Part shown: piece by piece, positions 1,386-31,188 of the stretch
Position numbering within the stretch: position 1 is the stretch's first letter
Layout: each line of letters starts with the position of its first letter
IMG/VR virus record: IMGVR_UViG_3300045988_180666
Direction: 5' to 3' (one strand)
Length of the DNA: 31,872 nucleotides
DNA from: a virus
Taxonomy: Duplodnaviria; Heunggongvirae; Uroviricota; Caudoviricetes
Notes under the pieces: model-generated
What the model was told of the DNA's origin: nothing
The model's database searches: none
Seen by the model: only the letters and a program-made list of their open reading frames with translations
Program-made: the position numbers and the translations under genes

Positions 1386-2150
1386 TTAAACAATGCGTAA
1401 TTTATCACCAACTTTTCTAAGCTTGCCCGATGCCGACAGGCGAAGGCGAGGCTGGCGCACGGTGATGCTGACCTCTTGCCAGAGCGGTGTGTTGGCGGTG
1501 GGGATGACCCAGAACTTGGTGGTGCCCTCGCCCTTGATGATGAGGTTGCCGCTTGGGTCTGCCACGAGCGAGTCGCCCTCGGCTCGCTGGAAGAGCACGC
1601 TCTGAGGGAGGTAGCTCGGCAGGATCTGCACGGCGATGCGCAGAGCCACCTTGTTGCGTAGGCTTATCTCGGGGAGATAGGTCAGGTTCATGCGAGCTGG
1701 CGCGATGAAGCCTGTGGTTATCTGAGCGGCGAGACCATCCATCTGCGCTATCTTGGCATCGGCTCGCTTGGATGCCGCGTCAGCCTCTGCAGCCTTGGTC
1801 TCTGCCAAGGCTGCCTGTGATGCTGCAGCCTCGCCCTGCTCGCCAGCCGCCTTGGCTGCGCTCTGGGCGAGGTTAGCCGCCTTGTTGGCATCGTCGGCCG
1901 CACCCTGCGCTCTGACGGTCGGTGTCTTGTCGAGCCACAAGCGCCACTTGGCGTTGGTATCTGAAGGAGTCGTCGTGTTGCCATCCTCTAGGGAGGCGAA
2001 GACTCCTGACGATGTGTGAACGATGTCGCCCTCGTCGTAGCCCTTGACGGTCTGGCCATCCTCATCTTGATAGGAGTAGCCCGACTGCCAGGTGCCCTGG
2101 TCGGTGAAGGCGACATTGCCCACGATAATGATGTTTGTGTTATCTGCCAT
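1386..2150 (-). CDS. Hypothetical phage protein with Ala/Gln-rich coiled-coil-like centre (tail-fibre-like)
   Basis: ORF track, 254 aa. Tightly packed in minus-strand gene string. Central AAKAAGEQGEAAASQAALAETKAAEADAASKRADAKIAQ segment. Confidence 0.6.
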   Translation of the reverse strand: MADNTNIIIVGNVAFTDQGTWQSGYSYQDEDGQTVKGYDEGDIVHTSSGVFASLEDGNTTTPSDTNAKWRLWLDKTPTVRAQGAADDANKAANLAQSAAKAAGEQGEAAASQAALAETKAAEADAASKRADAKIAQMDGLAAQITTGFIAPARMNLTYLPEISLRNKVALRIAVQILPSYLPQSVLFQRAEGDSLVADPSGNLIIKGEGTTKFWVIPTANTPLWQEVSITVRQPRLRLSASGKLRKVGDKLRIV

Positions 2151-7115: not shown

Positions 7116-7125
7116 ATGCAAAGAT
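7116..7125 (-). promoter_or_regulatory. Promoter -7 element (TATCTTTG on minus strand) for the 1159-aa gene
   Basis: Plus-strand TGCAAAGATA 14-23 nt from ATG at 7102; reverse complement matches Bacteroidetes -7 consensus TAnnTTTG. Confidence 0.55.
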
Positions 7126-7154
7126 AGGTATGATGAGAACTATATAAAAATACG

Positions 7155-12479: not shown

Positions 12480-12489
12480 TGCAAAGATA
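12480..12489 (-). promoter_or_regulatory. Promoter -7 element for the 353-aa gene operon
   Basis: TGCAAAGATA about 22 nt from ATG at 12458; preceded (on minus strand) by hairpin + T-run. Confidence 0.55.
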
Positions 12490-12501
12490 GGAAGGAAGGG
12501 G

Positions 12502-12584
12502 AGAAAATAAAAATACCTGATTGTCATCACGACAACCAGGTATCGACTCATGGAGCGGACCACGCCTTGTTAAGCCTAAGGCTC
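12502..12584 (-). terminator. Tandem hairpins with T-run between the 103-aa gene and the 353-aa gene promoter
   Basis: Hairpin ATGGAGC (12549-12555) / GCTCCAT (12578-12584). Imperfect 12 bp inverted repeat TACCTGATTGTC (12514-12525) / GACAACCAGGTA (12531-12542) followed on minus strand by TTTTTATTTTCT. Confidence 0.45.
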
Positions 12585-13575: not shown

Positions 13576-13814
13576 GCAACCGCCATATTGAAAAGACCTT
13601 TTTCCCGCTGCCGGGAAAATGATACTTTATAGGCATAAAAAAAGCCCACGGCGTGAAGCCTAGGCGAAACAGTCGCCATCGCTGAGTAGATTACTACTAT
13701 CTTATAACCGATGGCAAAAGTACGAAGAATAATTGGAACCGCCAAAAAAAAAGCGAGAAATTTTGAAATAAATGACTTTTTTATGTTTTAGAGCATAAAA
13801 CAAGGGGGTGAGGA

Positions 13815-15340: not shown

Positions 15341-16024
15341 TTATAGCTTTCCTTTGTCGTGGTAGCTGTAGAAGCCATCCTCAGCCAAGATGATATGGTC
15401 CATCAAGAAAAGTCTCATCACCTCGCACGCCTTGGCTATCTTCTGCGTGAGCATATCGTCCGCCTTGCTCGGCTGCGTGCTGTTCGATGGGTGGTTGTGT
15501 GCCACGGCGATGATGGTTGCATTGTTGAGCACGGCTTCTTTCATTATCAGTCGAACGTCCACCGCTGTCTCGGTGATGCCTCCCTCGCTGAGCTTGGTGC
15601 ACTTTATCAGCCTAAAGTTTTGGTTCATCAGCACTACCCAAAAGCCCTCTGTCTCATTGCAGCCTATCATTGGGCGAAGATAGTTGTAGAGTGCCAGGCT
15701 GCTGCCTAGGTCGGTGTTTCTCGCTACCTTTTCCATTTGGTAGCGTCTGCCTAGCTCGATGGCTGCCTGTAGGGCTATCGCCTTGCAGTCTCCAATTCCT
15801 GGTACCACTTCCAGGTCTTCTATTCTCGCCTTGCCGATGTTGCGAAGCGAGTTGCCCATGATGTTATAAATCTGTCGTGCCTGCTCTTGGCTGTCCTTGG
15901 TACCTGCCCCTCTGTTGATTACCAAAGAAATCAAGTCAACGTTGGTAAGGGTGTCGAAACCTTGGTTATAGGCTCTGTACTGCGGTCTCTCCTCCATACA
16001 AAGATTGTTATAATTTTGTCTCAT
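15341..16024 (-). CDS. radC: RadC-like JAB/MPN-domain protein (UPF0758 family)
   Basis: 227 aa. N-terminal helix-hairpin-helix-like VVPGIGDCKAIALQAAIELG. C-terminal AVAHNHPSNSTQPSKADD matches the JAMM motif HxHx7Sx2D typical of RadC family. Confidence 0.8.
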   Translation of the reverse strand: MRQNYNNLCMEERPQYRAYNQGFDTLTNVDLISLVINRGAGTKDSQEQARQIYNIMGNSLRNIGKARIEDLEVVPGIGDCKAIALQAAIELGRRYQMEKVARNTDLGSSLALYNYLRPMIGCNETEGFWVVLMNQNFRLIKCTKLSEGGITETAVDVRLIMKEAVLNNATIIAVAHNHPSNSTQPSKADDMLTQKIAKACEVMRLFLMDHIILAEDGFYSYHDKGKL

Positions 16025-16039
16025 ATCTTTTGTTATTTG

Positions 16040-16564
16040 TTAGTTATACATTCTCTTTGTTCTCGCTAGGAACATCGCTCCCATCACTTGTGCGCCACAT
16101 TCGGCTAGCTCGTTGGCGAACTCTCGGGCGGTCGCTCCGCTCGTCACCACGTCGTCGAAGATGATGACTTTCTTTCCGCTGAAGTACTCTCTATCGAGTG
16201 CCACTCTGTAGTCGAAGCTCTCACACACTCTGTCTGTGCTGAAGTGCTTGGCTGTGCGCTCTCCATAGATGGAAATGTGCTCGTTTCCGTTCTGTACCTT
16301 TGCGCCTTGGCTCACCTTTTGGGCGAAGCGAGAAAAGCGCTTGGTGTACTTCTTTGAGTTGGCTGCTGGAGCGCAAACCATCACGAAGTCGCTGGCTTTG
16401 TCGCCATAGGTGTTGACGAAAGAGCTGACCACCATATCGGCAGCTGCGTCTGTCGCCCACTGCTTTCCATCCTTGAAGGCAAAGATGAAGTTTCTCACTT
16501 GCTCTGCTTGTGCTGAGCGGTCGAAACGCTTGGAGCTGTACTCGTAATAATTGAAAGTTTTCAT
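16040..16564 (-). CDS. Phosphoribosyltransferase (PRTase) domain protein, ComF-like
   Basis: 174 aa. KKVIIFDDVVTSGATAREFANELAECGA matches the PRPP-binding loop of type I PRTases. No N-terminal zinc-ribbon. 15 nt upstream of radC. Confidence 0.7.
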   Translation of the reverse strand: MKTFNYYEYSSKRFDRSAQAEQVRNFIFAFKDGKQWATDAAADMVVSSFVNTYGDKASDFVMVCAPAANSKKYTKRFSRFAQKVSQGAKVQNGNEHISIYGERTAKHFSTDRVCESFDYRVALDREYFSGKKVIIFDDVVTSGATAREFANELAECGAQVMGAMFLARTKRMYN

Positions 16565-17462: not shown

Positions 17463-19064
17463 CTATAGCATGGAACCCGTGGCGATGTAGCCATCAGCCT
17501 GAGGGTATTTCTCCATGCCAATCATGAGCGTGTCGTAGGCATCGGAGCCATCGGTGCGAGCCTCCAACTTATCCTCCTCGGTCTCAGCCAGCTTCTCGCC
17601 TCGCTTATCCTTCTTGCCGTTGTAGACCCCGGCCAGGCGGATGGAGATGAGCAGGTCTTCGTTGTTCTCGCTGTTGATCATCGAGCGATGCTCAGCCTTG
17701 CCGAGGAACATGCGGTTGAGCAGAAGCATCTTTTCGAGATGTCCCATCGGGTTGCCCAGATAGACCTCGTTGACATACCAGCCATGGTCGGTGAGGTAGT
17801 CGGTGATGAAGGTATGGAAGTCATCGTTCATCAGGGCGTAGTTGTTGCCCACGAAGGTGGAGTCGTAGTAGAAGTTGACCTCTTTGCACCGATGGTACTC
17901 ATAGTACTGCATGAACTTGTCGAGCAGGGCTGGCAGCTTCTCCTCATACTTCACGAAGATGCTCTTGAGGCAGCGTGCCTCGCCCCGCAGGTTGTCTTGT
18001 CCGACGGCTATCCAGTTGATGAGGGCGTTGGCATCGAAGGCGATGCAGAGCGGACGGTCGGGGTCAACGTCGGCATCCATTCTGGAATCTACATGCTTGA
18101 GCTTGTCGATGTCGTAGCCCAAGCCATCGAGGTAGGCGAGGTTGGGCGCCGTGTATAGGTTGGCATCCCTGAGGTTGGAGTAGAAGCCATCGAGCGAGAT
18201 GGAAGGTCGCTTGCACATGATGGAGGTCTGGAAGGTGAGGGCAGGGAGGTCTCGCTTCATCTGCTTGATGAACTCCATGCCGAGCACCTCGATGTTATAG
18301 ACCGATGAGTACTCTTTATAGAAGAGTGCCTTGGAGCGCAGTTGCGCCAGGAGCTGACCAATCTCTCGGAGTCGGCGCTGGGCATAGCCTGAGACATGGC
18401 CCGAGGTCTTGATGCGGTTGCGTATGTCATACTCCTCTACCACGAGCGAGGCGATGGCGTCGATGAGCAGCTGGTCGCAGTCTTTCTTGTAGTTGAGGAA
18501 CCAGGAGCCCTTCTTGGTCACGGGCATATCAGAGGTGATGAGCATGCCATGGTGGTAGTAGTGCTGGCCGAAGAGGTTGACGTTGCCTCGATTGGCAGGG
18601 AAGGTCTCGTCTTTGAGCTGTTCGAAGTTGATGAACTTCGCCTCGTCGATGTCGAGGTAGTCGAGCGAGAGGGAGTTGGAGGTACCCTTGCGGTCTTGCG
18701 AGATGATGGTACCGATGGAGCCGTTATAGAAAGAGATGGTGTTCTCCCAGTTGCTGGGCGGTATGACCGGGTCGGGCCATCCCAGTTTTTTGGGAGGCTT
18801 GACCCCGATGAGATAATGCTTGCCCCGGTGGAAGCCCCATCGCTCCCAGTGCTGAAGCATCGACGGTATGGTGTTGGTGAGGCATCGCTTGGTGTTGGCG
18901 GATACGAAGCCGCCGTTGCTGCCAGGCATGCGCTGCATGTTGCGCAGGTTGAAGGTGGCGTGGAGAATGCTCTTGCCGATGCCTCGACCGCCCACGACCA
19001 CGTTGTCGCGGGCGGAGATGAGGTTGACCTCCATCTGGGCTGGGTTGAGATATTGATCTATCAT
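17463..19064 (-). CDS. terL: Terminase large subunit
   Basis: 533 aa. Walker A-like VVVGGRGIGKS near N-terminus, Walker B-like LDYLDIDEA. Size and position beside a small upstream gene with ATGA overlap fit a phage TerL. Confidence 0.75.
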   Translation of the reverse strand: MIDQYLNPAQMEVNLISARDNVVVGGRGIGKSILHATFNLRNMQRMPGSNGGFVSANTKRCLTNTIPSMLQHWERWGFHRGKHYLIGVKPPKKLGWPDPVIPPSNWENTISFYNGSIGTIISQDRKGTSNSLSLDYLDIDEAKFINFEQLKDETFPANRGNVNLFGQHYYHHGMLITSDMPVTKKGSWFLNYKKDCDQLLIDAIASLVVEEYDIRNRIKTSGHVSGYAQRRLREIGQLLAQLRSKALFYKEYSSVYNIEVLGMEFIKQMKRDLPALTFQTSIMCKRPSISLDGFYSNLRDANLYTAPNLAYLDGLGYDIDKLKHVDSRMDADVDPDRPLCIAFDANALINWIAVGQDNLRGEARCLKSIFVKYEEKLPALLDKFMQYYEYHRCKEVNFYYDSTFVGNNYALMNDDFHTFITDYLTDHGWYVNEVYLGNPMGHLEKMLLLNRMFLGKAEHRSMINSENNEDLLISIRLAGVYNGKKDKRGEKLAETEEDKLEARTDGSDAYDTLMIGMEKYPQADGYIATGSML

Positions 19065-21916: not shown

Positions 21917-23035
21917 TTACTCCTTGCCCTCAGCTCCGGTATCGTCTGCAGAAGAATTCTTCTGCTCTGCATCGCTAGCTGTGTTGCTGCTTGCAGGATC
22001 AGCACCTGAACCCTTTGTGATGAGCGATGTGGTACCATCGTTTGTGATGAACAGGGCTCGTTCTTTATTGATGCTCTCGTACTGGCAACCTAAGAACTTG
22101 GTGGCGATGAAGTCGAGCTTCCAAGGGTGGTACTTTTCTACGCTGATCTTCTCCTCGTCGCTGTTGTTTGCCTCGTTGACACCCACGAGCATATTGTTGC
22201 GAGTGGTGAGCTGGAAGAACGGAGCGTTCTTCTTGTTGATGAGTGGTACCATCTCAACGTTGTCGAAACCCTCGACGGTGTTGTGGTTGTAACCGGTATT
22301 GTATGGCACATTGCCAAACTTATTGAGGTAGTTGCGGTTGTAGAGATTGATGAACGCCTGTGGAACGTAGAGATAAAGCTTCTCTTCGCCAATCAGTTCT
22401 TCGTCAGCCTCCTCGCAAATGGCCTGTGCGAAGTCAACGGCGTTATCGCTGCTGATATTCTTACCACTGCCCAAAATATCTGAAACTTTGATGAGGTTGC
22501 CGAGGTCTCGAGACAGCTTGCCATTAGTCAACTCAGTCTTGGCGATGGTATCGAAACCATTGAAGAGGTCTTTTGAGCCTTTGCCCTCGTCGTTGCGCAC
22601 GGCATCGAAGAGGTGGAGGTTGAGGTTCTTGCCCAGCTTGAGCGCCAAGAGCTGCAGCACCTGAAGGGTGATTGGCACGTTCTTAAGCGCTTCGCCATTC
22701 ATGGCGTTGGCCCCCCAAATGGTGGAATAAACTGAGTTCGGGGAGAACTTGATGTCAACGTTGCCGAGGAACACCTGCAAAGTGCGAGGTGTAATCTTTA
22801 CGCCACCATCGCCCACGCGGTTCTCGTCGTATGGACCAAACTCTGCGTTGCCGAGCAACTCGCCCACGGTCTCTGAAACTCTGATGCCCGGGCGCAGGGT
22901 CATGTACTTGAGTGACTGAGCCAAGCCTTTGGTAGGCATCGTAATCAACTTCGAACGGTAAGTTTTCGCAGTGTTCTGCAGCTGTACATCGACATCTACA
23001 GGCACAATGAATTTATTATCTGCCATATTATGCAA
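21917..23035 (-). CDS. Putative major capsid protein
   Basis: ORF track, 372 aa. Immediately downstream of the ClpP-like protease gene, which is the usual capsid position. Size fits HK97-fold capsids. No motif confirmation. Confidence 0.45.
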   Translation of the reverse strand: MHNMADNKFIVPVDVDVQLQNTAKTYRSKLITMPTKGLAQSLKYMTLRPGIRVSETVGELLGNAEFGPYDENRVGDGGVKITPRTLQVFLGNVDIKFSPNSVYSTIWGANAMNGEALKNVPITLQVLQLLALKLGKNLNLHLFDAVRNDEGKGSKDLFNGFDTIAKTELTNGKLSRDLGNLIKVSDILGSGKNISSDNAVDFAQAICEEADEELIGEEKLYLYVPQAFINLYNRNYLNKFGNVPYNTGYNHNTVEGFDNVEMVPLINKKNAPFFQLTTRNNMLVGVNEANNSDEEKISVEKYHPWKLDFIATKFLGCQYESINKERALFITNDGTTSLITKGSGADPASSNTASDAEQKNSSADDTGAEGKE

Positions 23036-24053
23036 ACTGATTTAAAACATCCAACACTTGATCTGAGCAGAAATCCTCGACCTTGGTGTCATCGACAGCA
23101 GTGTGCGTGTCGCCACCAGGCTCTCCCTCCAGATCCTTCACTTTATCCTTCAGGTCATCTCTCTCCTTTTCGAGATTCTTGACCTTAGTCTCTAACTCCT
23201 TCTTCTCGTCCTTGACCTTCTGAAGCTCTGTGTCTTTGTCGGTCACGGCCTTGGAGTCGGCAGCGATCTTATCCTCCAGTTTCTGCATCTGCTCCTGTGA
23301 GATTGTGCAGTTCTTTGCGGAATCTTCTGCCTCAATGCCCTCGATATTGAGGACATTGTTGATGTGAGTCCATTTTTTGATCATATTAATAATTTTATTT
23401 TGTGATTTATCTTTGCCGAATAATCGGTCGATGATGCTTGGCTTTTTATCATACCAGGAGTTAACAACCTCTGGGAGAACAGGAAGGTTGTTGTACTTGA
23501 TGAAGTCTTGCGTCTGCTCGGTGATGTCGGCAGGCTTGCCATCCATGGCTTCATCGACGAGACCCAGTTCGATGCACTCATCGACGGTGTGCCACATCGC
23601 TTCGGACATCACCTTGACGATGTCCTCGTGCTTCTTGCCCGAGCGATCGCAGTAAACGTTGGCGATGATGTTGTCGATTTTCTGCTGGTTCTCTTGCTGT
23701 TTTTGAAGTTGCTCGATGAGCGAGCCTATCTGCTCCTCGTTGAGCGCAGACCACACAAACTGCTCGGTAGAGCACTTGTGTACCAGGAGCAAGCTATATT
23801 TGCTCATGCGAATCTTGCTGGCACCCATCGCACAGATGGTGGCAGCAGAGGCAGAGAAGCCCGCCTGGAAGTCAACGGTCACGTCGCCATGGGACTTGAA
23901 CATCTGACAGATGGCGAGACCTGCGGAGACCTCGCCACCCAAGGAGTCGATGGCAACATCGACGTGCTTATCTTTGTTGGCCTTAAGAACATCGCGAACC
24001 ATGAGCTTGGTCCACGAGCCAATATATCCTGTGATAGAAATTTGGTACTTCAT
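23028..24053 (-). CDS. ClpP-like prohead serine protease with C-terminal coiled-coil (scaffold-like) extension
   Basis: 341 aa. DSLGGEVSAGLAI, GFSASAATICAMGA and LLLVHK resemble ClpP/S14 catalytic regions. C-terminal 100 aa is Lys/Glu/Asp-rich heptad-like (KVKDEKKELETKVKNLEKERDDLKDKVKDLE). Confidence 0.75.
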   Translation of the reverse strand: MKYQISITGYIGSWTKLMVRDVLKANKDKHVDVAIDSLGGEVSAGLAICQMFKSHGDVTVDFQAGFSASAATICAMGASKIRMSKYSLLLVHKCSTEQFVWSALNEEQIGSLIEQLQKQQENQQKIDNIIANVYCDRSGKKHEDIVKVMSEAMWHTVDECIELGLVDEAMDGKPADITEQTQDFIKYNNLPVLPEVVNSWYDKKPSIIDRLFGKDKSQNKIINMIKKWTHINNVLNIEGIEAEDSAKNCTISQEQMQKLEDKIAADSKAVTDKDTELQKVKDEKKELETKVKNLEKERDDLKDKVKDLEGEPGGDTHTAVDDTKVEDFCSDQVLDVLNQFA

Positions 24054-24074: not shown

Positions 24075-24084
24075 CGCAAAGATA
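24075..24084 (-). promoter_or_regulatory. Promoter -7 element for protease-capsid operon, embedded in a 12 bp-arm inverted repeat
   Basis: CGCAAAGATA about 22 nt from ATG at 24053; forms right arm of palindrome TATATCTTTGCG (24053-24064) / CGCAAAGATATA (24075-24086). Confidence 0.5.
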
Positions 24085-24113
24085 TATAATAATGTATAAG
24101 GATAAAAAAACTT

Positions 24114-24612: not shown

Positions 24613-25197
24613 TTAATCTTTGCTAAATCTTGTTGTAGATGTTAAATTTACGCCTCTTTTTGCGTGTTGATCACGCATTCTGTAGAAACATTGGCGTACG
24701 GTATCCTCGTAATCGATGCCAATGCCATGCTGTTCGCACCATGCCGAAATGAGCGATGAAAGCTTGCATGAGCGGTCGGCGATGTCTTTGAGCGAAGCCC
24801 AGAGATCCATCTTGAAGAGGTCGGAAATCATCTCTTTGACGGCACGTCTGGCACGTGGCCCGAGGTAGTTGTACTCTCGCACAGGCTTAGCCTTGGAGTC
24901 AGGCAGCTCGATGGCAAGATACTCTTCGGGATGGGTGAGCCATCGGCTCTGCTCGAACTCCTCGTCGTGGAAGGTATGCTTGACACTTTGGTGCAGTTGG
25001 CTGGCATCAGCCTGCTGCATCTCTTGGATGTTCTCTTGGTCGATAGGCGATAGGTTGACAACGGGAGGTCTGCTGGTGAACTTGCGGAGCACAGCCACCT
25101 CGTTGCCGATGGCAGGGAAGACCACTGGGTTGCCATAAGCTCGGTAAGCCCATTGTCTGATGTGGGTAGGAACTTTGATGTAAACAATTGGATTCAT
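24613..25197 (-). CDS. Hypothetical phage protein (about 194 aa)
   Basis: Track ORF 24613..25209 begins with a non-ATG start; first ATG at about 25197 (MNPIVYIKV...) lies about 20 nt downstream of TGCAAAGATA motif (25216-25225). Confidence 0.55.
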   Translation of the reverse strand: MNPIVYIKVPTHIRQWAYRAYGNPVVFPAIGNEVAVLRKFTSRPPVVNLSPIDQENIQEMQQADASQLHQSVKHTFHDEEFEQSRWLTHPEEYLAIELPDSKAKPVREYNYLGPRARRAVKEMISDLFKMDLWASLKDIADRSCKLSSLISAWCEQHGIGIDYEDTVRQCFYRMRDQHAKRGVNLTSTTRFSKD

Positions 25198-25215
25198 ATA
25201 GCTATGCAATTTTCG

Positions 25216-25225
25216 TGCAAAGATA
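25216..25225 (-). promoter_or_regulatory. Promoter -7 element for the 194-aa gene
   Basis: TGCAAAGATA about 20 nt from ATG at about 25197. Confidence 0.55.
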
Positions 25226-25339
25226 CAAAGAAAATTTGAAATAACTAACGATAATCGGTAAAAACTAACTTTTATCAGTAAATTTGGTGTGATATAATTT
25301 CGTCCGAAAAGTTTGTATTTTTGTATCGTACAAACAAGG

Positions 25340-25593
25340 CTCTGTAACTAGCTGATAATCAATACTATTTTTGTGATACAATTTTCTGATACAGAAATTG
25401 TAACTCTTTAGCTTTTGTAACTTGGGGTTTTGTCGAGGTCGAAGACCTGTAGGAGAAGGGGCTTGTTACAAACTTGAAAAACTTTGTAACAGAGTTGTAA
25501 CGCAACTTTGTAAACATCGGCAAGGCGGCTTAACTCCATCTTTTATAATTATTTACCTCTTTTGCCAACATTATGTTACAGAGTTACAAAGGA
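25340..25593. repeat. Iteron-like array of at least 9 TTGTAAC / GTTACAA elements in both orientations
   Basis: Copies at about 25343, 25399, 25416, 25464 (rev), 25485, 25496, 25507 (variant), 25576 (rev), 25584 (rev). Includes near-repeats TGTAACAGAGTTGTAAC and TGTTACAGAGTTACAAAG. Downstream of primase gene. Confidence 0.6.
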
Positions 25594-25733
25594 TTTGTAT
25601 AAAATAAAAGAAAGGGGTGTGGGGAAAACGATGGCACGGGGCGTGAAGGAGGATAGGGAAGGCCCATCGAGACACCCAGGACACCCCCATTGGCCAATGG
25701 AGGGGTAGCGAGACGAAACATCGCCCATGGCAA

Positions 25734-25770
25734 CGAAAAAAGGGAGCGACGGCCAATGCGCATCGCTCCC
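25734..25770 (-). terminator. Rho-independent terminator after primase-helicase gene
   Basis: 8 bp GC stem GGGAGCGA (25742-25749) / TCGCTCCC (25763-25770); plus-strand A-run 25736-25741 gives TTTTTT on minus strand. Confidence 0.65.
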
Positions 25771-25951
25771 TCGTAACATGGGAAAAGAATTATAAATCAG
25801 CAAAAATCTGCCTATGAAATCAGCCCTCGTCTGCTTGCAAAAATAGTGAAAAATTGCTTGAAAATTTAGCCGAAAATATTTGCATAATTCAGATATTTTT
25901 TGTACCTTTGCACTATAACTTGGGGCTATCTATTCTATTATATATGGATGG

Positions 25952-28906
25952 CTAGAAAGGTTTATCACTATCTTTATCTACCTTGCTCCAGTCAATGGTA
26001 GATTGATATTCACCCCCAGCTGCAGGGACATCAGCCTTGGCAGCTTGTTTATCCTCTTTTTTATCATCACTCTTCTTGCTTCGGAGATAGATCATCTCGA
26101 CAGGGCTGCCGTCTGGGTTAGCTGGATCGCGTCTGATGATGCGGTGCTGGCTGTTGCAGAGATCAGCTGGGTTCAGCTCTTGGATGTATGGACACAGCTC
26201 GACGAAGGCTCTGAGCTTTTTGGTGAAGCTCTGTGTGGTCGCCTTGTTGATGCCTGAGAACTGCTTGAAGTCATTGAACGCACGCTCTCTCACGATAAAT
26301 GTATCGAGTCGCTCGCTCTCTTCTGAGAAGTAGGATGCAGCCCAGTCTTCGAAGTTGACACCCATGTCGGCCTTGAACTTGCGCTTGATGATGTTATCCA
26401 TCGGTGGCATGATCTTGATAGGTTCGCCAGCCAAGGAGAGATAGAAACGACAGCACTGCAGGAAAAAGTTGATGTCAGCATTCCACTCATCCTCAGTGTA
26501 TGTCTTTGAGAAGAGATCTTCGTCGAAGTCATCACGGATGCTTCGGGTCTCTTGGTAATCATTCTCCTCTGTGCGCTGATGGTAATAGTCGGAGAACACC
26601 ATATAGAGCAGTCTCGCCTCTGAGGAAGGGTCGAAGTCTGCCGGCACGTAGTTGGTGGTGAAGGCAATCTTCGGGCTATCCTCGAAAGGAATTGTGAAGC
26701 TCTGGTTGTTCTTTGGGTTGACTGTCATATCTGAAGTAATGTTATCGTAAAATAAACCTGTGTTGAGATAGCGGTCACAGTCATCGAGGAGCAGCATCTG
26801 GGTGTGCTGTGTCACCTGATCGAAGACGTGTGGGTTGTCCATCAGCTTAGGGTTGCGTCCGGAAAGCTTGACTGTTTTCATCAGCAGTGAAAGCGTCTTG
26901 AAGAAGAAACTCTTACCGGAACGGCCGTTGCACTCGTTGTTTTCACCAATCTTGTTGTCCATCGCCATCGGAGCCCAAGCCCTGGATGGTGCCTTGTAAT
27001 GATGGAGCATGTAGCCGAAGGTGAAAATCTTGTTTATCAAGTTCTGCTTTTGCTCTTGTATCTCGTTGTCGGCAAGCCCTTCGCCAGCGATGTCGAAGAG
27101 GTGTGCCTTGTGGTATGCCTCTTTCTCCTCGATGCTCTTGTCCTCAAAAGCATACTCTAGCTCTTTGCGCCAGTAGGTGCGAGAGGCGTTGATGAGATAG
27201 CCGAAGAAGTGGGACTTCACGTTCTTGACCTCGATGTCGAACTTCGGCCTGCCATCCTCGTCGATGGTTCGGGTGATGGAGAACATGTCATCCAACTTCT
27301 TGAAGTTGTGGTTGATGACATTCTCTTGCCAAACATAGTTTTTGAGCGAGCTGCCCTCACGCTGGTACTCGTTTAGTCCATCTTTGGTGACCTCGACGCT
27401 GACACGAGGGAAGAAGAACAACTGCGAGTGGTTGGTGTAGCTGGTGAAGTCTAGCGTAATCTCTTGGAGCGAGTCGAGCGCCGATGCCGACAGCTTTGGC
27501 GTGTTGAGCACCAAGTTAAGGATGTCACGCTTCTCAGCTCTCTCGATGACCCATTGGCGGCAGAACTCACGGATGTCTCTCGTGGTGATGAGCTTGACGA
27601 TGTTGCCCGTGATGCGAACATATTTGGTGATGGTCGAGTTGTCATCGTGCAAGGTATAGAAACCATTGAGACGAAGAAAATTGTAGAGGCACGCCGTGTC
27701 GATGTAGTGGTCCCAGGTGTTAGCCTTTTTGTTGAGCTTGCTCACCCAAAATCGGGCTGGCATCGCCAGTGTCATGAGGTTGCGGAAGTCTTTGCGAGTA
27801 TTGCGCAGCTCCATCCAGTCTCGCAGGTCTTTGCGCCCCTTGCCACGGTTGTCGTGGTAGGTGCGAAGCCAAGAAGGCAACCATATCGTATGGATGTCGA
27901 TGAAGCGCAGGGCAAGCTCTGTGCCCTTGGCGATGCCCGTCTCGTCGATGTCGGGTATATTGTAGAGCACCTCGACATACTTCATAATCTCTCGGTACTC
28001 CTCGTCGCTGAGCTTGTAGGTCTCGGAGTTGAACCATAACGGGTTGTAGCCCATGGAACGGCAGCAGAGACTGTCACGCTCGCCACTGCAGATGAAAGCC
28101 TCGGGAAGTTTCTTCTCCTTGTAAGGCTTGGACTCGTCTGTGTTGGTCTTGTTGTACTCAGCCTCTTCACGGCGGTTGAACTCGTGATAGGCAGCCTTCA
28201 GCTCAGCTAGGCCATTGATGTATTGCTTAGGCTTGATGCCGTCTGGGGTGTAAGAGAATCGCCACTGCTTTTGGTAGTTGAGAGGCTCATATATCTTGTA
28301 GAACTTAACCTCAGGCTTGTCGCCTTCAGCTGGGCGAACCAAGCACTCACGCATAAAGATAGGGTAGTGCTCGTTGCTGTGCTTAATCTTGACCTTGCGG
28401 TCTTTGACGTATCCTATCCACTTGGCGGAATGCCAGTTGAGCGCATCGACGTGCTCTTGCTTGACGTTTGGACCCAGTACCTTCAGTTCATCTTCGGTGA
28501 ACTTCTCGTTCAGCTCGAAAGGTCTGGTACCATCTTTCTCGTTGATGGTGGCATCACGCTCTGTGAACGTAGGCTTGTTGACCTCTTTTTTGAGTTCATC
28601 GCTAACGTTGTATTCGGAAGCCAGTCGCAGGATAGCATCAGGAAAGCGGTCGATGCACTTCTCTCTCATGTAGAGGTCGATAGGTGACTCGGCAGATCCG
28701 TCGCCGCCGAAGTCTGTCACTCGCCAGCAGTCTTTGAACTTTTTGAGACTGCAGGAAGGTGTTTTCTCATTGCGGATGGCAAAGTGCTTTTTAGGCGTGC
28801 CAGTCGTGCAATATTTCTGGATGCATTCTTTTGCGTCCGGGTATAGTGAGATGATGATGTCGAGACCATCATCTGTAGCTTGATAAATTTGTTCTGCTTT
28901 GATCAT
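25952..28906 (-). CDS. Replicative primase / SF3 (D5/P4-like) helicase
   Basis: Track ORF of 994 aa. P-loop NGRSGKSF followed about 45 aa later by Walker B-like MLLLDDCD in C-terminal third. Track start overlaps the promoter -7 element, so the ATG at about 28906 (MIKAEQIYQ...) is the likely start. Confidence 0.7.
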   Translation of the reverse strand: MIKAEQIYQATDDGLDIIISLYPDAKECIQKYCTTGTPKKHFAIRNEKTPSCSLKKFKDCWRVTDFGGDGSAESPIDLYMREKCIDRFPDAILRLASEYNVSDELKKEVNKPTFTERDATINEKDGTRPFELNEKFTEDELKVLGPNVKQEHVDALNWHSAKWIGYVKDRKVKIKHSNEHYPIFMRECLVRPAEGDKPEVKFYKIYEPLNYQKQWRFSYTPDGIKPKQYINGLAELKAAYHEFNRREEAEYNKTNTDESKPYKEKKLPEAFICSGERDSLCCRSMGYNPLWFNSETYKLSDEEYREIMKYVEVLYNIPDIDETGIAKGTELALRFIDIHTIWLPSWLRTYHDNRGKGRKDLRDWMELRNTRKDFRNLMTLAMPARFWVSKLNKKANTWDHYIDTACLYNFLRLNGFYTLHDDNSTITKYVRITGNIVKLITTRDIREFCRQWVIERAEKRDILNLVLNTPKLSASALDSLQEITLDFTSYTNHSQLFFFPRVSVEVTKDGLNEYQREGSSLKNYVWQENVINHNFKKLDDMFSITRTIDEDGRPKFDIEVKNVKSHFFGYLINASRTYWRKELEYAFEDKSIEEKEAYHKAHLFDIAGEGLADNEIQEQKQNLINKIFTFGYMLHHYKAPSRAWAPMAMDNKIGENNECNGRSGKSFFFKTLSLLMKTVKLSGRNPKLMDNPHVFDQVTQHTQMLLLDDCDRYLNTGLFYDNITSDMTVNPKNNQSFTIPFEDSPKIAFTTNYVPADFDPSSEARLLYMVFSDYYHQRTEENDYQETRSIRDDFDEDLFSKTYTEDEWNADINFFLQCCRFYLSLAGEPIKIMPPMDNIIKRKFKADMGVNFEDWAASYFSEESERLDTFIVRERAFNDFKQFSGINKATTQSFTKKLRAFVELCPYIQELNPADLCNSQHRIIRRDPANPDGSPVEMIYLRSKKSDDKKEDKQAAKADVPAAGGEYQSTIDWSKVDKDSDKPF

Positions 28907-28932
28907 AATTCTTTTCCATTGTAAATTTGCTT

Positions 28933-28940
28933 GCAAAATT
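28933..28940 (-). promoter_or_regulatory. Promoter -7 element for primase-helicase gene
   Basis: Plus-strand CAAAATTA = reverse complement TAATTTTG, about 28 nt upstream of ATG at about 28906. Confidence 0.45.
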
Positions 28941-29386: not shown

Positions 29387-29576
29387 TGTTCTTCATTCTG
29401 AATTTAACAATACCTGCCACGATGCCGTCTTCTTGGTCATCGTAGAACATATTTAAATCTGTTGTGCCCTTATGGAGTGTACCATAGGACACGTCAACGG
29501 CAACGCTGGCATCCTCGAAATCTTTGAGGATGGCTTGAAGCTGTTTGCTGTTGCATCTGACTGTCATTTTTCCCAT
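29370..29576 (-). CDS. Hypothetical small early-region protein
   Basis: ORF track, 68 aa. Confidence 0.45.
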   Translation of the reverse strand: MGKMTVRCNSKQLQAILKDFEDASVAVDVSYGTLHKGTTDLNMFYDDQEDGIVAGIVKFRMKNNEKED

Positions 29577-29788
29577 GATCCATCATTGATAATTTGCTCG
29601 ATGACCTCTCTGTCGATGGCACGCCAAGTATTGGTGCGCATCTTATTGTAGATGGTGTTCTGGCTCATCTCTAGCTTTAGCTGCAGTGTGGCCATGAACT
29701 TGCTTCTCTTTTTGCGTGGTATCTCATTATACCATGCGAGGATGATATTTTCATCATCATTTTTTTGTTTTTTTCTTGCATATTCCAA
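29564..29788 (-). CDS. Small basic protein, first gene of early lytic operon (Cro-like role possible); start uncertain
   Basis: ORF track, 74 aa with apparent non-ATG start at 29788; first in-frame ATG at about 29695. Divergent from repressor gene. -7 element about 22 nt upstream. Confidence 0.45.
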   Translation of the reverse strand: MEYARKKQKNDDENIILAWYNEIPRKKRSKFMATLQLKLEMSQNTIYNKMRTNTWRAIDREVIEQIINDGSWEK

Positions 29789-29798
29789 TATTTATTAT

Positions 29799-29806
29799 TA
29801 ATTTTG
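29799..29806 (+). promoter_or_regulatory. Repressor promoter -7 element (plus strand), back-to-back with early lytic promoter
   Basis: TAATTTTG on plus strand about 97 nt upstream of repressor ATG (29903); adjacent to the minus-strand element. Confidence 0.4.
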
Positions 29807-29809
29807 TTG

Positions 29810-29817
29810 CAAAGTTA
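29810..29817 (-). promoter_or_regulatory. Early lytic promoter -7 element (minus strand) in divergent switch region
   Basis: Plus CAAAGTTA = reverse complement TAACTTTG, 22 nt upstream of the 74-aa gene start at 29788. Confidence 0.5.
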
Positions 29818-29902
29818 GTAATAAAAATCGGAAAATACTAACGAAAGTAAGTAAAAACACCTACGATAATAGGTTAAATATTATTAATTAAATTAGGTAA
29901 TT

Positions 29903-30280
29903 ATGTTTAATGGTCAGATAATCAGAAAGTTAATGTCGGATGCTGGCTTAACTAAAAAAGAGTTTGAAAGACGTATGTTCGGTAGTAAATCGACCGACCT
30001 CAACCATTTGGAAAAAGCGAAGAATCTTCGCAGTGACACTCTCGAACGTCTGCGTGATGTGTTGAAGTGCTCTATGGATGACTTCTTTACAGCACCCTCA
30101 TGGGCTGAGAACGGAAAGGGGACAGTCGTAGGCTCTAACAATGTGCTGTCAACAGTAGCCATCGGCAACGAAGTGATGGAAGCCCAATATCTCAAGGAGT
30201 TGCTCTTGGAGAAGGACAAACGCATCAGCACTTTGGAAAATTATATCAAGCTTCTGGAGACTAACTTAAATAAGGACTAA
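29903..30280 (+). CDS. XRE-family helix-turn-helix transcriptional repressor (phage CI-like), with C-terminal coiled-coil
   Basis: 125 aa. N-terminal IRKLMSDAGLTKKEFERRMFGSKSTDLNHLEKAKNLRSDTLERLRDVLKCSMDDFF is a typical HTH_XRE. No S24 peptidase domain. Only phage gene on plus strand. Confidence 0.65.
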   Translation: MFNGQIIRKLMSDAGLTKKEFERRMFGSKSTDLNHLEKAKNLRSDTLERLRDVLKCSMDDFFTAPSWAENGKGTVVGSNNVLSTVAIGNEVMEAQYLKELLLEKDKRISTLENYIKLLETNLNKD

Positions 30281-30309
30281 TACGAAACATAATTCGTAAG
30301 ATGAATCCT

Positions 30310-30325: not shown

Positions 30326-30486
30326 TATAAAATATATCGTATAATCTCAGCAGTGATATCCAACTCGTTAGTCCTGCCGCCGCAACTAGTTTCGGGTAAG
30401 AAGTTGGTAAACAACATCTTATCCGATTTCTGTTTTTCTATTGGAACTATATCAGAACGAAATACTTTCCATTCCACATTCCTTTG

Positions 30487-30542: not shown

Positions 30543-30591
30543 CACATTGATAATTTATTGTGCAACCAAATCTCGATGGAGGTACTTCGTT

Positions 30592-31188
30592 ATGTCAATA
30601 TCAAAAACTAGACAGAAATTAGTGGATGTCGCTCGACAACTCTTTGCAAAGAACGGAATCGCCAATACAACGATGAATGACATCGCTGTGGCTTCTGGTA
30701 AGGGACGTCGCACGCTTTATACCTATTTTAGTCGTAAGGAGGACGTCTATTACGCAGTGATAGAGTCGGAATTGGAGCGCCTTTCTGACAAACTTGACGA
30801 AGTGGCCGCCAGTAAGATTCGACCTCAAGACAAAATCATCGAATTGATTTATACCCACTTGAGCATGATCAAGGAGACTGTTGTCAGAAATGGAAATCTG
30901 AGAGCTGAGTTCTTCCGCAATATTTGGATGGTGGAAAAGGCTCGCAAGAATTTCGATGAAGACGAGATAGAACTTCTCAGGAAGGTTTATTCCGAGGGCA
31001 AGGCGGACGGCGAGTTTGACATCGATAATGTAGATTTGGTGGCTGACATCACACACTATTGCATCAAAGGTCTCGAAGTTCCGTTTATCTATGGGCGATT
31101 GGGACATGGCTTGAACGTGGAGTCGAGCAAACCGCTGGTTGCCAAGGTTGTCTATGGTGCTTTAGGAAAGTCGGGAATGAAGTTGTAA
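30592..31188 (+). CDS. TetR/AcrR-family transcriptional regulator (host-type)
   Basis: Track ORF starts at 30547; ATG at 30592 (MSISKTRQKLVDVARQLFAKNGIANTTMNDIAVASGKGRRTLYTYF) gives the canonical TetR N-terminal HTH. Bacteroidetes-type promoter upstream. Confidence 0.8.
   Translation: MSISKTRQKLVDVARQLFAKNGIANTTMNDIAVASGKGRRTLYTYFSRKEDVYYAVIESELERLSDKLDEVAASKIRPQDKIIELIYTHLSMIKETVVRNGNLRAEFFRNIWMVEKARKNFDEDEIELLRKVYSEGKADGEFDIDNVDLVADITHYCIKGLEVPFIYGRLGHGLNVESSKPLVAKVVYGALGKSGMKL

What the first reader, a model, noticed from the sequence alone, without database searches (positions are those of the whole stretch)
29789..29902. Divergent repressor / early-lytic switch with back-to-back -7 elements; leader motifs shared with the 25216-25275 promoter region (candidate operators)
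The only plus-strand phage gene is an XRE-type repressor, divergent from a minus-strand early operon. The 114 bp intergenic region holds TAATTTTG (plus, 29799-29806) and TAACTTTG (minus-strand sense, 29810-29817) separated by 3 bp, and an inverted repeat GTTAGTA (29815-29821) / TACTAAC (29837-29843). Short motifs in this leader (GCAAAG, ACTAACGA, AATCGG, GTAAAAAC, CGATAAT) recur in shuffled order in the leader of the 25216 promoter, which suggests a second operator set for the same repressor. The repressor has a coiled-coil C-terminus rather than an S24 autopeptidase domain, so induction may not be by LexA-like self-cleavage.
Basis: partly seen in the sequence, partly recalled or inferred. Interest (0 to 1): 0.5.

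Follow-up and report, generated by a model that had tools for sequence, protein, structure and literature searches.

The report
Prophage repressor switch with two operator sets
This is the lysogeny switch of a common Segatella (Prevotella) copri prophage: a small helix-turn-helix repressor whose 16-bp palindromic binding sites sit on the early promoter and again, 4.6 kb away, on a duplicated promoter before the head genes; the type is ordinary, but these sites are not described in the papers I searched.

Summary

**Shared words.** The k-mer overlap between 29789-29902 and 25210-25290 is not above chance (P about 0.14-0.2).

**What the words are.** Comparison with 32 related phages shows they are fragments of one motif, the 16-bp palindrome ACTAA-N6-TTAGT.
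- It occurs as a tandem pair upstream of the leftward -7 box at both places.
- Its proximal half-site sits in the -33 slot of each promoter.
- A matrix trained only on relatives ranks 25264-25279, 29837-29852 and 25244-25259 as the top three sites in the 31.9-kb window.
- In 263 kb of related loci, all 128 near-perfect matches fall at three positions: the switch, region B, and just 3' of the repressor gene.

**The repressor.** It is 125 aa: an XRE-type helix-turn-helix domain, a low-confidence linker and one long amphipathic helix. It has no S24 domain.

**The -7 boxes.** They face each other rather than standing back to back, so RNA polymerase probably cannot occupy both.

It is not conserved in relatives.

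**What is missing.** Binding, transcription starts and the induction trigger are all inferred. I judge this a new member of the CI/Cro-type switch, of moderate interest.

The parts
29903..30280 (+). Repressor gene, 125 aa: XRE-type HTH (residues 3-62), low-confidence linker (67-90) carrying the conserved motif VGSNNVLSxVxI, and a C-terminal amphipathic helix (89-124).
   Evidence: Pfam HTH_26 at 29.8 bits against a cut-off of 22, with no S24 hit. PHROG 3, transcriptional repressor. AlphaFold2 model. Foldseek neighbours are CapH N-terminal domain, C-proteins, SinR, Stl and 434 repressor, with weak E-values of 0.02-0.1. Alignment and heptad pattern.
29564..29788 (-). First early gene, in the position that cro holds in lambda. 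It is 74 aa from TTG 29788. The ATG at 29781 that starts it in all relatives is out of frame here, because the homopolymer at 29760-29766 is one base short.
29810..29817 (-). -7 box TAACTTTG of the leftward early promoter.
   Evidence: Matches the Bacteroidota consensus TAnnTTTG. Near-invariant in 15 distinct relatives, and the one change seen among these 15 falls at an 'n' position.
29799..29806 (+). -7 box TAATTTTG, candidate promoter of the repressor gene. Together with the early -7 box it forms the 19-bp near-palindrome 29799-29817.
   Evidence: Relatives read TAACTTTG. The window differs at an 'n' position, which fits a promoter constraint better than a strict palindrome. Its -33 slot is poor (CTTG).
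29837..29852 (.). Strong operator ACTAACGAAAGTAAGT. Its TTAG half-site, read on the minus strand, lies 20 nt upstream of the early -7 box, in the -33 slot.
   Evidence: Matrix score 16.0, rank 2 of 31.9 kb, and rank 1 with the matrix trained on switch-region sites only. The arms CTAA and T.AGT are invariant while the 6-nt spacer varies.
29859..29874 (.). Second operator of the pair, a symmetric variant ACCTACGATAATAGGT, centred 22 bp from the first.
   Evidence: It is the positional homologue of the -44 site, which reads ACTAA-N6-TTAGT in most relatives. It scores low here: 3.9 and 8.8.
29817..29832 (.). Weak candidate third site AGTAATAAAAATCGGA, between the -7 and -33 positions of the early promoter.
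   Evidence: Relatives L006, L007, L009, L010 and L027 read ACTAATAAAAATTAGA there, one mismatch from the motif. The window copy scores only 3.1.
29873..29893 (+). Near-invariant AT-rich block GTTAAATATTATTAATTAAAT just upstream of the repressor ATG. Its role is unknown; it may be a translation leader or another binding site.
30282..30297 (.). Candidate distal site ACGAAACATAATTCGT, 2 nt after the repressor stop codon.
   Evidence: Relatives carry one or two operator-like sites at this position, at +380 and +400. The window copy scores only 3.6.
25218..25225 (-). -7 box TATCTTTG of promoter B, about 20 nt upstream of the 194-aa gene.
   Evidence: GCAAAGATA is invariant in relatives.
25244..25259 (.). 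Operator B1, ACTAACGATAATCGGT. Its TTAG half-site, read on the minus strand, lies 19 nt upstream of the -7 box of promoter B.
   Evidence: Matrix score 13.9, rank 3, and 12.0, rank 3. Conserved in relatives.
25264..25279 (.). Operator B2, ACTAACTTTTATCAGT, centred 20 bp from B1.
   Evidence: Matrix score 16.4, rank 1, and 12.8, rank 2. Conserved in relatives.
24613..25197 (-). First gene downstream of promoter B: 194 aa, function unknown. It is followed by a 139-aa gene and the head protease and capsid block.
   Evidence: No family in Pfam, PHROGs or NCBIfam. Homologues carry no informative name (the only one given is 'hypothetical protein'). The head maturation protease is at 23028-24053.
25736..25770 (-). 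Intrinsic terminator ending the early operon after the 994-aa primase-like gene.
   Evidence: The hairpin GGGAGCGA...TCGCUCCC followed by U6 folds at -29.2 kcal/mol, z -4.8. The stem is conserved in relatives.

Best explanation
This is the immunity region of a temperate phage integrated in Segatella copri, next to the host TetR and FabG genes. It works as a CI/Cro-type switch adapted to Bacteroidota promoters.

**The repressor.** The 125-aa protein probably dimerises through its C-terminal coiled-coil helix. It probably binds the 16-bp palindrome ACTAA-N6-TTAGT.

**The switch region.** Two sites, centred 22 bp apart, lie upstream of the leftward early promoter. There may be a third, weak site. 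The half-site nearest the promoter occupies the -33 slot, so bound repressor would keep RNA polymerase off the early operon. That operon holds a 72-aa Cro-position protein, small ORFs and a primase-like gene, and ends at the terminator at 25736-25770.

**Region B.** The same module is duplicated 4.6 kb away: distal site, A-tract, proximal site, 19-20 nt, then TA(A/T)CTTTGCA. It stands before a 194-aa and a 139-aa gene that lead into the head genes. One repressor would therefore lock two leftward promoters.

**The repressor's own promoter.** It is probably the rightward -7 box, 3 bp from the early box and facing it. Occupancy of the two promoters would then be mutually exclusive. The operators would lie in the repressor's 90-nt leader, which allows autoregulation.

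**Induction.** There is no S24 domain, so induction must use another route. Possible routes are an antirepressor, or proteolysis aimed at the conserved linker motif.

**Shown versus inferred.** Shown: the motif, its positions, its conservation and the domain make-up of the protein. Inferred: binding by this protein, the transcription starts, any looping between the two sets, and the induction route.
For: **Protein**
- HTH_26 above the Pfam cut-off, and no S24 hit.
- The model gives an HTH domain, a linker and a helix at residues 89-124 with pLDDT about 90.
- Heptad positions L97, L101, K104, I108, L111, I115 and L118 are conserved.

**Motif**
- At one mismatch or fewer, the 32 relatives have hits only at -66/-44 (sometimes -86), at about -4770/-4750, and at +380/+400.
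- That is 128 hits in 263 kb, with none anywhere else.
- A matrix trained without the window's close relatives gives a clean gap in the window: 16.4, 16.0 and 13.9, then 6.8. About 0.02-0.4 such sites are expected by chance.
- A matrix trained on switch-region sites alone finds the region-B sites as the best matches elsewhere in the window.

**Selection**
- In a gap-free alignment the arms are invariant and the 6-nt spacers vary.

**Promoter architecture**
- Promoters A and B align over about 59 nt with one gap.
- TTAG sits 20 and 19 nt upstream of the -7 TA. That is the spacing at which canonical promoters of this window carry TTTG: the host TetR promoter, promoter C, and those at 13715, 15143 and 28934.
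- A terminator separates the two operons.

**Host**
- The family is named from Segatella copri.
Against: - No binding or expression data exist for this phage, and no transcription start has been mapped.
- In this window the second switch site is a diverged palindrome that scores low. Only one strong site sits at the switch itself.
- Region A and region B are paralogous, so part of their similarity is common descent rather than common function.
- The half-site is nearly the same in all clades, so repressor-operator covariation could not be tested with any power.
- A distant syntenic phage (L033) does not carry the motif. No replacement motif could be resolved there.
- The Cro-position protein, or another factor, could bind the same sites.
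- The rightward -7 box has a poor -33 slot and could be only the mirror half of a palindromic site.
- The function of the genes behind promoter B is unknown.
Confidence: 0.7

Rival explanations
1. The ACTAA-N6-TTAGT sites are bound by a host SOS regulator rather than by the phage protein. Bacteroidota have a non-canonical LexA that binds CTAA-N5-TTAG. The phage promoters would then be wired directly to DNA damage, as in phages that borrow host LexA.
For: The half-sites match those of the published motif CTAA-N5-TTAG. That motif is bound by XRE-HTH plus S24 regulators of Bacteroidetes, and it often occurs in tandem in their promoters (PMC8565304). This would explain induction without an S24 domain on the phage repressor.
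Against: The same paper states that both groups of these regulators are absent from the order Bacteroidales, which contains Segatella. The spacer here is 6 nt, not 5, and the paper reports that changing the spacer length abolished binding. The motif travels with the phage and stands next to a phage HTH gene in every relative.
Confidence: 0.07
2. The palindromes are read mainly by the 72-aa first early protein, acting as Cro or as a modulator of repression of the TP901-1 MOR kind, or by another phage protein. The 125-aa HTH protein would bind something else, for example the 19-bp palindrome made by the two -7 boxes.
Against: The changes seen in the 19-bp element fall at the free 'n' positions of TAnnTTTG or at its centre. 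That fits promoter boxes better than a protein-read palindrome. XRE-type dimers typically read sites of 14-18 bp with arms of 4-5 bp, like the motif found here (own knowledge). The fold match of the 72-aa protein is below usual thresholds. In this window that gene is frameshifted at its conserved start, yet the element is still carried as a prophage.
Confidence: 0.13
3. The similarity of the two regions is only a relic of a promoter duplication and has no shared regulator. Region B would be an ordinary constitutive or late promoter.
For: Promoters A and B, and a third copy at 25865-25918, are paralogous. The raw k-mer overlap is not above chance.
Against: The third paralogue (C) has lost the palindromes and carries a canonical TTTG at -33, so the sites are not an obligatory part of the promoter. 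Within both A and B the arms are kept across clades while the spacers diverge. The three late-type promoters of the window share a different upstream motif.
Confidence: 0.08

Closest known systems
Phage lambda CI/Cro switch with OR and OL
   Same: The repressor gene is divergent from the early operon. Palindromic operators stand in tandem about two helical turns apart and overlap the early promoter. A second operator set lies kilobases away (2.4 kb in lambda, 4.6 kb here), which in lambda permits looping.
   Different: There is no S24 self-cleavage domain, and oligomerisation is by a single helix. The promoters are of the Bacteroidota -33/-7 type. The two -7 boxes face each other, whereas PR and PRM are back to back. 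Both repressed promoters point the same way, and the second one precedes the head genes. No sequence similarity was found beyond the HTH fold class.
Lactococcal phage TP901-1 CI/MOR switch (own knowledge, not tested by sequence here)
   Same: The repressor is an XRE-type HTH followed by a flexible linker and a helical oligomerisation region, with no recognisable self-cleavage site. It has several palindromic operators, including a distal one. The first gene of the divergent lytic operon encodes a protein of about 72 aa.
   Different: No sequence or fold match to MOR or to TP901-1 CI appeared in the PDB searches. The distance to the distal set is much larger here, and that set sits on a second promoter.
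Coliphages 186 and P2 (own knowledge)
   Same: The lytic and lysogenic promoters face each other, so transcription or polymerase occupancy at one interferes with the other. 186 has flanking distal operator sites, and its induction works through an antirepressor rather than through repressor self-cleavage.
   Different: In those phages the starts are tens of bp apart and the genes are convergent. Here the boxes are 3 bp apart and the genes are divergent. The protein families are unrelated.
Non-canonical LexA of Bacteroidetes, binding CTAA-N5-TTAG (PMC8565304)
   Same: The half-sites CTAA/TTAG are the same. The DNA-binding domain is a lambda-CI-like multi-helical HTH. Sites often occur in tandem.
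   Different: The spacer is 6 nt here, not 5. The protein has no S24 domain and is phage-encoded. The LexA-like regulators are reported absent from Bacteroidales.
NTD-only CI-like repressors of Bacteroidales prophages (bioRxiv 10.64898/2026.06.25.734096)
   Same: The repressor sits at the end of the prophage and has an HTH domain without the self-inactivating C-terminal domain. That study found this class in 429 Bacteroidota prophages, against 197 of 902 Bacteroidales prophages with a complete CI. Its induction trigger is unknown.
   Different: That study reports no operators or promoter architecture, and it included only one Prevotella isolate. Membership of this particular protein in their set was not checked.
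SinR/SinI of Bacillus subtilis
   Same: An XRE HTH domain is followed by a helical multimerisation region. SinR is among the top fold matches. SinR is switched off by a small partner protein that pairs with that region, not by cleavage.
   Different: SinR is a chromosomal biofilm regulator. The match covers only the HTH domain. No SinI-like partner was identified here.

Membership tests
XRE / Cro-C1 type HTH regulators (Pfam HTH_26, HTH_3) | Five-helix HTH domain that matches the family profile above the curated cut-off. | tested here: met
   HTH_26 scores 29.8 bits against a cut-off of 22 over residues 7-63. The model has helices at 3-13, 18-26, 33-38, 44-54 and 58-62. Fold neighbours are all XRE-type domains.
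Self-cleaving CI/LexA-type repressors | C-terminal S24 peptidase domain with a Ser-Lys dyad and an Ala-Gly cleavage site. | tested here: not met
   No Peptidase_S24 hit at E up to 0.1. The protein is only 125 aa, and residues 89-124 form one helix.
ImmR/ImmA-type (or CapH/CapP, DdrO/IrrE) repressor-protease pairs | A metalloprotease gene of the ImmA/IrrE (M78) type adjacent to the HTH repressor gene. | tested here: not met
   The repressor is flanked by the att region on one side. On the other side are 74-, 68- and 103-aa ORFs with no Pfam or NCBIfam family. A RadC-like JAB protein lies 14 kb away, but it belongs to a different family. The part of the prophage left of the window was not seen.
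Bacteroidota housekeeping promoters (-33 TTTG / -7 TAnnTTTG; own knowledge of the consensus) | A TAnnTTTG box close to the start, with TTTG 19-21 nt upstream. | tested here: inconclusive
   Exact -7 boxes occur at 29799-29806 (+), 29810-29817 (-) and 25218-25225 (-). The -33 slots hold TTAG (both leftward promoters) or CTTG (rightward), not TTTG. Canonical TTTG-N19/20 promoters do exist elsewhere in the window. No transcription starts are known.
Lambda-type multipartite operators | Repeated dyad-symmetric sites overlapping promoter elements, conserved in related phages. | tested here: met
   Searches show tandem pairs at fixed positions, conserved arms, variable spacers, and overlap with the -33 slot.
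Lambda-type multipartite operators | Specific binding of the cognate repressor, and cooperative binding or looping between the sets. | not testable with these tools
   This needs EMSA or footprinting, plus in vivo reporters or chromosome-conformation assays.
Bacteroidetes LexA-like SOS boxes (CTAA-N5-TTAG) | A fixed 5-nt spacer, and a host S24-HTH regulator. | tested here: not met
   All sites found here have a 6-nt spacer. The regulators are reported absent from Bacteroidales. The host genome itself was not searched.
Cro or MOR-type first lytic gene product | Detectable homology, or an HTH fold match, to Cro, MOR or Xre proteins. | tested here: inconclusive

The most novel reading that the evidence does not exclude
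A single coiled-coil XRE repressor of a widespread S. copri prophage family holds two duplicated promoter-operator modules 4.6 kb apart. One fires the replication operon and the other fires the genes that open the head-morphogenesis block. The repressor may bridge them, together with a third site set just 3' of its own gene, by higher-order assembly. It would be released by a trigger unrelated to SOS that acts on the invariant VGSNNVLSxVxI motif in its otherwise unstructured linker. This would be the first operator-level model for the large class of Bacteroidales prophages whose repressors lack a self-cleavage domain.
Probability: 0.25. Interest if true: 0.55.

Novelty: new member of a known kind. 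Interest (0 to 1): 0.4.

Why it matters
Segatella copri is a dominant human gut bacterium, and this repressor family is seen on hundreds to thousands of contigs.

A recent survey reports HTH-only CI-like repressors in 429 Bacteroidota gut prophages, and says their induction mechanism is unknown.

This analysis gives a concrete and testable map:
- the operator sequence;
- two repressed promoters;
- facing -7 boxes;
- a conserved linker motif as a candidate target for induction.

That map provides defined DNA probes and point mutations for EMSA, reporter and induction experiments in this group. It could also help predict immunity groups among S. copri phages. The logic of the switch itself is classical, so this is useful detail and not a new principle.

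Tried and rejected
The count is not significant against dinucleotide shuffles or against other AT-rich stretches of the window. I dropped it in favour of a comparative motif model.
It is not conserved in relatives.
3. **Known RNA families.** Rfam found nothing in the window or in 25150-26000. There are no tRNA genes.
4. **The sigma-70 promoter scan.** It gave no more hits than shuffles and is not appropriate for this host.
5. **Annotated phage genomes.** Only a 60-bp match outside the switch was found.
6. **Naming the first early protein and the 194-aa protein.** Pfam, PHROGs, NCBIfam, PDB sequence search and fold search gave no reliable assignment.
7. **Host LexA-like control.** I considered it because of the CTAA/TTAG half-sites. 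I ranked it low because the spacer differs and the regulators are reported absent from Bacteroidales.
8. **Covariation in a distant syntenic phage (L033).** The motif is absent there, and I could not resolve a replacement shared by its two regions.
9. **Mu-like transposable phage.** I thought of this because the repressor sits at the very end of the prophage. I rejected it because the large early protein has homologues with DnaG-type primase domains and a conserved att core follows the repressor.

Full report
**What is in the window**

The window (GC 50.5%) is the right part of a prophage. All phage genes lie on the minus strand except one. They include:
- a head maturation protease at 23028-24053;
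- a large terminase at 17463-19064;
- a 994-aa gene at 25952-28936. A distant syntenic phage carries at this position a 1075-aa protein with DnaG-type primase domains.

Host genes for a TetR regulator (30547-31188) and FabG follow on the right. A 16-bp core, GTCCTGCCGCCGCAAC at 30371-30386, is shared by all relatives. After it the sequences diverge or run into the same TetR gene, so it marks the attachment site.

Homologues of the plus-strand gene are named from Segatella copri and occur on hundreds to thousands of contigs.

**Checking the observation**

The inverted repeat is one base lower than stated, at 29814-29820 / 29836-29842. All five short words occur in both regions.

The word overlap does not beat chance:
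- Against 5000 dinucleotide shuffles, the probability of as many shared 6-, 7- or 8-mers is 0.14-0.2.
- Other AT-rich stretches, including the host fabG upstream region, share as many 8-mers with the switch region.

**What comparison shows**

A scan of viral contigs gave 32 loci whose repressor is 64-100% identical. Their switch regions align without gaps over 121 nt between the two start codons. Four things are conserved.

1. The 19-bp element TAACTTTG-TTG-CAAAGTTA. The few changes fall at the free positions of TAnnTTTG or in the centre. That is what promoter boxes predict, and not what a protein-read palindrome predicts.
2. An AT-rich block just before the repressor ATG.
3. A site at -66 relative to the repressor ATG.
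4. A site at -44.

Sites 3 and 4 both have the form ACTAA-N6-TTAGT. Their arms are invariant or nearly so, and their 6-nt spacers differ between clades.

Its other arm is simply the left arm of the -66 site.

**The second set**

I searched the relatives with ACTAA-N6-TTAGT, allowing one mismatch.
- There are 128 hits in 263 kb.
- Every hit is at one of three places: the switch, a pair about 4.75 kb upstream, or just 3' of the repressor stop codon.

It lies upstream of an invariant TATCTTTG box in all 30 relatives whose locus reaches that far. In four of them (L011-L014) the sites are more degenerate.

Two matrix tests used training sets that excluded the window and its near-identical relatives.
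- A matrix from the remaining relatives ranks 25264-25279 (16.4), 29837-29852 (16.0) and 25244-25259 (13.9) first in the window. The next site scores 6.8. Between 0.02 and 0.4 sites at 13.9 or above are expected, depending on the background used.
- A matrix built only from switch-region sites, taken by position and not by pattern, still ranks the two region-B sites second and third in the window.

The 'shuffled' words ACTAACGA, CGATAAT, AATCGG and GTAAAAAC are pieces of the palindromes and of the A-tract that joins them. GCAAAG is the -7 box.

**Architecture**

Read on the minus strand, promoters A and B align over about 59 nt with a single gap. The order is: distal site, TTTTT, proximal site ending CGTTAGT, 19-20 nt, then TA(A/T)CTTTGCA.

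The TTAG of the proximal arm lies 20 nt (A) and 19 nt (B) upstream of the -7 box. Canonical promoters in this window carry TTTG at that spacing. Examples are the host TetR promoter and those at 13715, 15143, 25879-25910 and 28934. A bound repressor would therefore cover the -33 position.

A third paralogous promoter at 25865-25918 points the other way. It has TTTG in that slot and no palindromes, so the sites are an addition to the promoter and not a fixed part of it.

A strong hairpin with a U-run at 25736-25770 on the minus strand folds at -29.2 kcal/mol, z -4.8. It ends the early operon, so promoter B is needed for what follows.

At the switch, the two -7 boxes have their TTTG ends facing each other, 3 bp apart. 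If starts lie a few bases downstream of each box, the transcripts cross by about 9 nt, and polymerase at one promoter would exclude the other. The operators would then fall in the 90-nt leader of the repressor transcript. These start sites are inferred from the consensus and have not been observed.

**This copy in particular**

- Only one switch site is strong (29837-29852).
- Its partner at 29859-29874 is a symmetric variant, ACCTA-N6-TAGGT. It scores 3.9 or 8.8 depending on the matrix.
- A possible third site at 29817-29832 is weak.
- The site after the repressor stop is ACGAA-N6-TTCGT, also weak.
- The A8 run near the start of the first early gene is A7 here. The ATG used by all 32 relatives is therefore out of frame, and only the TTG at 29788 or an internal ATG gives the protein.
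- A 43-aa internal-start version is on record from three contigs.
- I cannot tell whether this is a sequencing error, a real defect or a tolerated variant.

**The proteins**

*Repressor.* It matches HTH_26 above threshold and nothing else.
- The model gives a five-helix domain, a low-confidence linker (67-90) and one long helix (89-124, pLDDT about 90).
- The helix has a conserved 3-4 hydrophobic repeat.
- The linker, though predicted to be disordered, contains the near-invariant motif VGSNNVLSxVxI. That makes it a candidate docking or cleavage site; this is inference.
- Fold neighbours are XRE-type domains only, such as CapH, C-proteins, SinR, Stl and 434 repressor, with weak E-values.

*The 194-aa protein behind promoter B.* It has no annotation anywhere I could search.

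**Comparison with what is known**

The logic is that of lambda: divergent genes, tandem dyad operators on the early promoter, and a second distant set.
- The protein design resembles TP901-1 CI or SinR more than lambda CI.
- The facing promoters recall 186 and P2.
- The half-sites equal those of the CTAA-N5-TTAG box of the non-canonical LexA of Bacteroidetes. However, the spacer differs by one base, and those regulators are reported absent from Bacteroidales. I therefore rank host-LexA control low.
- A 2026 preprint finds HTH-only CI-like repressors in 429 Bacteroidota gut prophages and leaves their induction open. This repressor fits that class.
- I found no paper describing operators for a Segatella or Prevotella phage in three searches. 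That is weak negative evidence.

**Verdict**

The finding is a real lysogeny switch, and the second operator set is real at the level of comparative sequence evidence. The kind of system is well known, and the member and its promoter-operator layout are new. Binding, transcription starts, looping and the induction trigger are all untested.

Noticed in passing
window 7119-7150, 12482-12513, 24077-24108 (minus strand): Three exact copies of TTTTTAT-N17-TATCTTTG, each just upstream of a gene start (a 1159-aa gene, a 353-aa gene and the head protease). None is expected by chance. This looks like a separate late promoter class, perhaps needing a phage-encoded activator.
   Followed up: partly
window 25230-25735: About 500 bp of non-coding DNA lie between the early-operon terminator and promoter B. 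It is highly conserved in relatives and holds six TTGTAAC/GTTACAA copies plus a variable GC-rich piece. There is no Rfam match. It could be a replication origin, a packaging site or a regulatory region.
   Followed up: partly
window 25879-25910 (plus strand): A canonical promoter, TTTG-N20-TACCTTTG, that is paralogous to promoter B but lacks operators. It points antisense into the 3' end of the 994-aa primase-like gene and is near-invariant in relatives. It may drive an antisense RNA.
   Followed up: no
window 29760-29766: A homopolymer of 7 where L001-L003 have 8. It puts the conserved ATG start of the first early gene out of frame. A 43-aa internal-start product of this allele is on record from three contigs.
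   Followed up: partly
window 30371-30386: GTCCTGCCGCCGCAAC is shared by all relatives about 90-170 bp after the repressor stop. Flanks diverge after it, or continue into the same host TetR gene. This is the likely attachment core and marks the right end of the prophage.
   Followed up: partly
window 15341-16024 and 16040-16564 (minus strand): A RadC-like JAB-domain protein (E 1e-35) and a phosphoribosyltransferase-domain protein lie inside the phage, between the terminase and tail genes. They may be accessory or anti-defence genes. RadC is also listed in the Bacteroidetes SOS regulon.
   Followed up: no
L016-L032, +380 and +400 after the repressor start; window 30282-30297: Relatives carry a tandem pair of operator-like sites directly after the repressor stop codon, for example TCAAACGAAAATTAGT followed by ACTGATTTTTTTTAGT. 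The window keeps only a weak symmetric variant. This may be a third operator set near the prophage end.
   Followed up: partly
L033 18037-19538: A distant phage with the same gene order carries proteins with P22_AR_N and Bro-N domains, which are typical of antirepressors. No such domains were found in the ORFs of this window that I scanned, but its left part is missing.
   Followed up: no
window 1407-1422: TCACCAACTTTTCTAAGCTT is the fourth-best match to the operator matrix, scoring 6.8 and 9.1. It lies within the 3' end of the 254-aa gene (1386-2150). It is probably chance.
   Followed up: no
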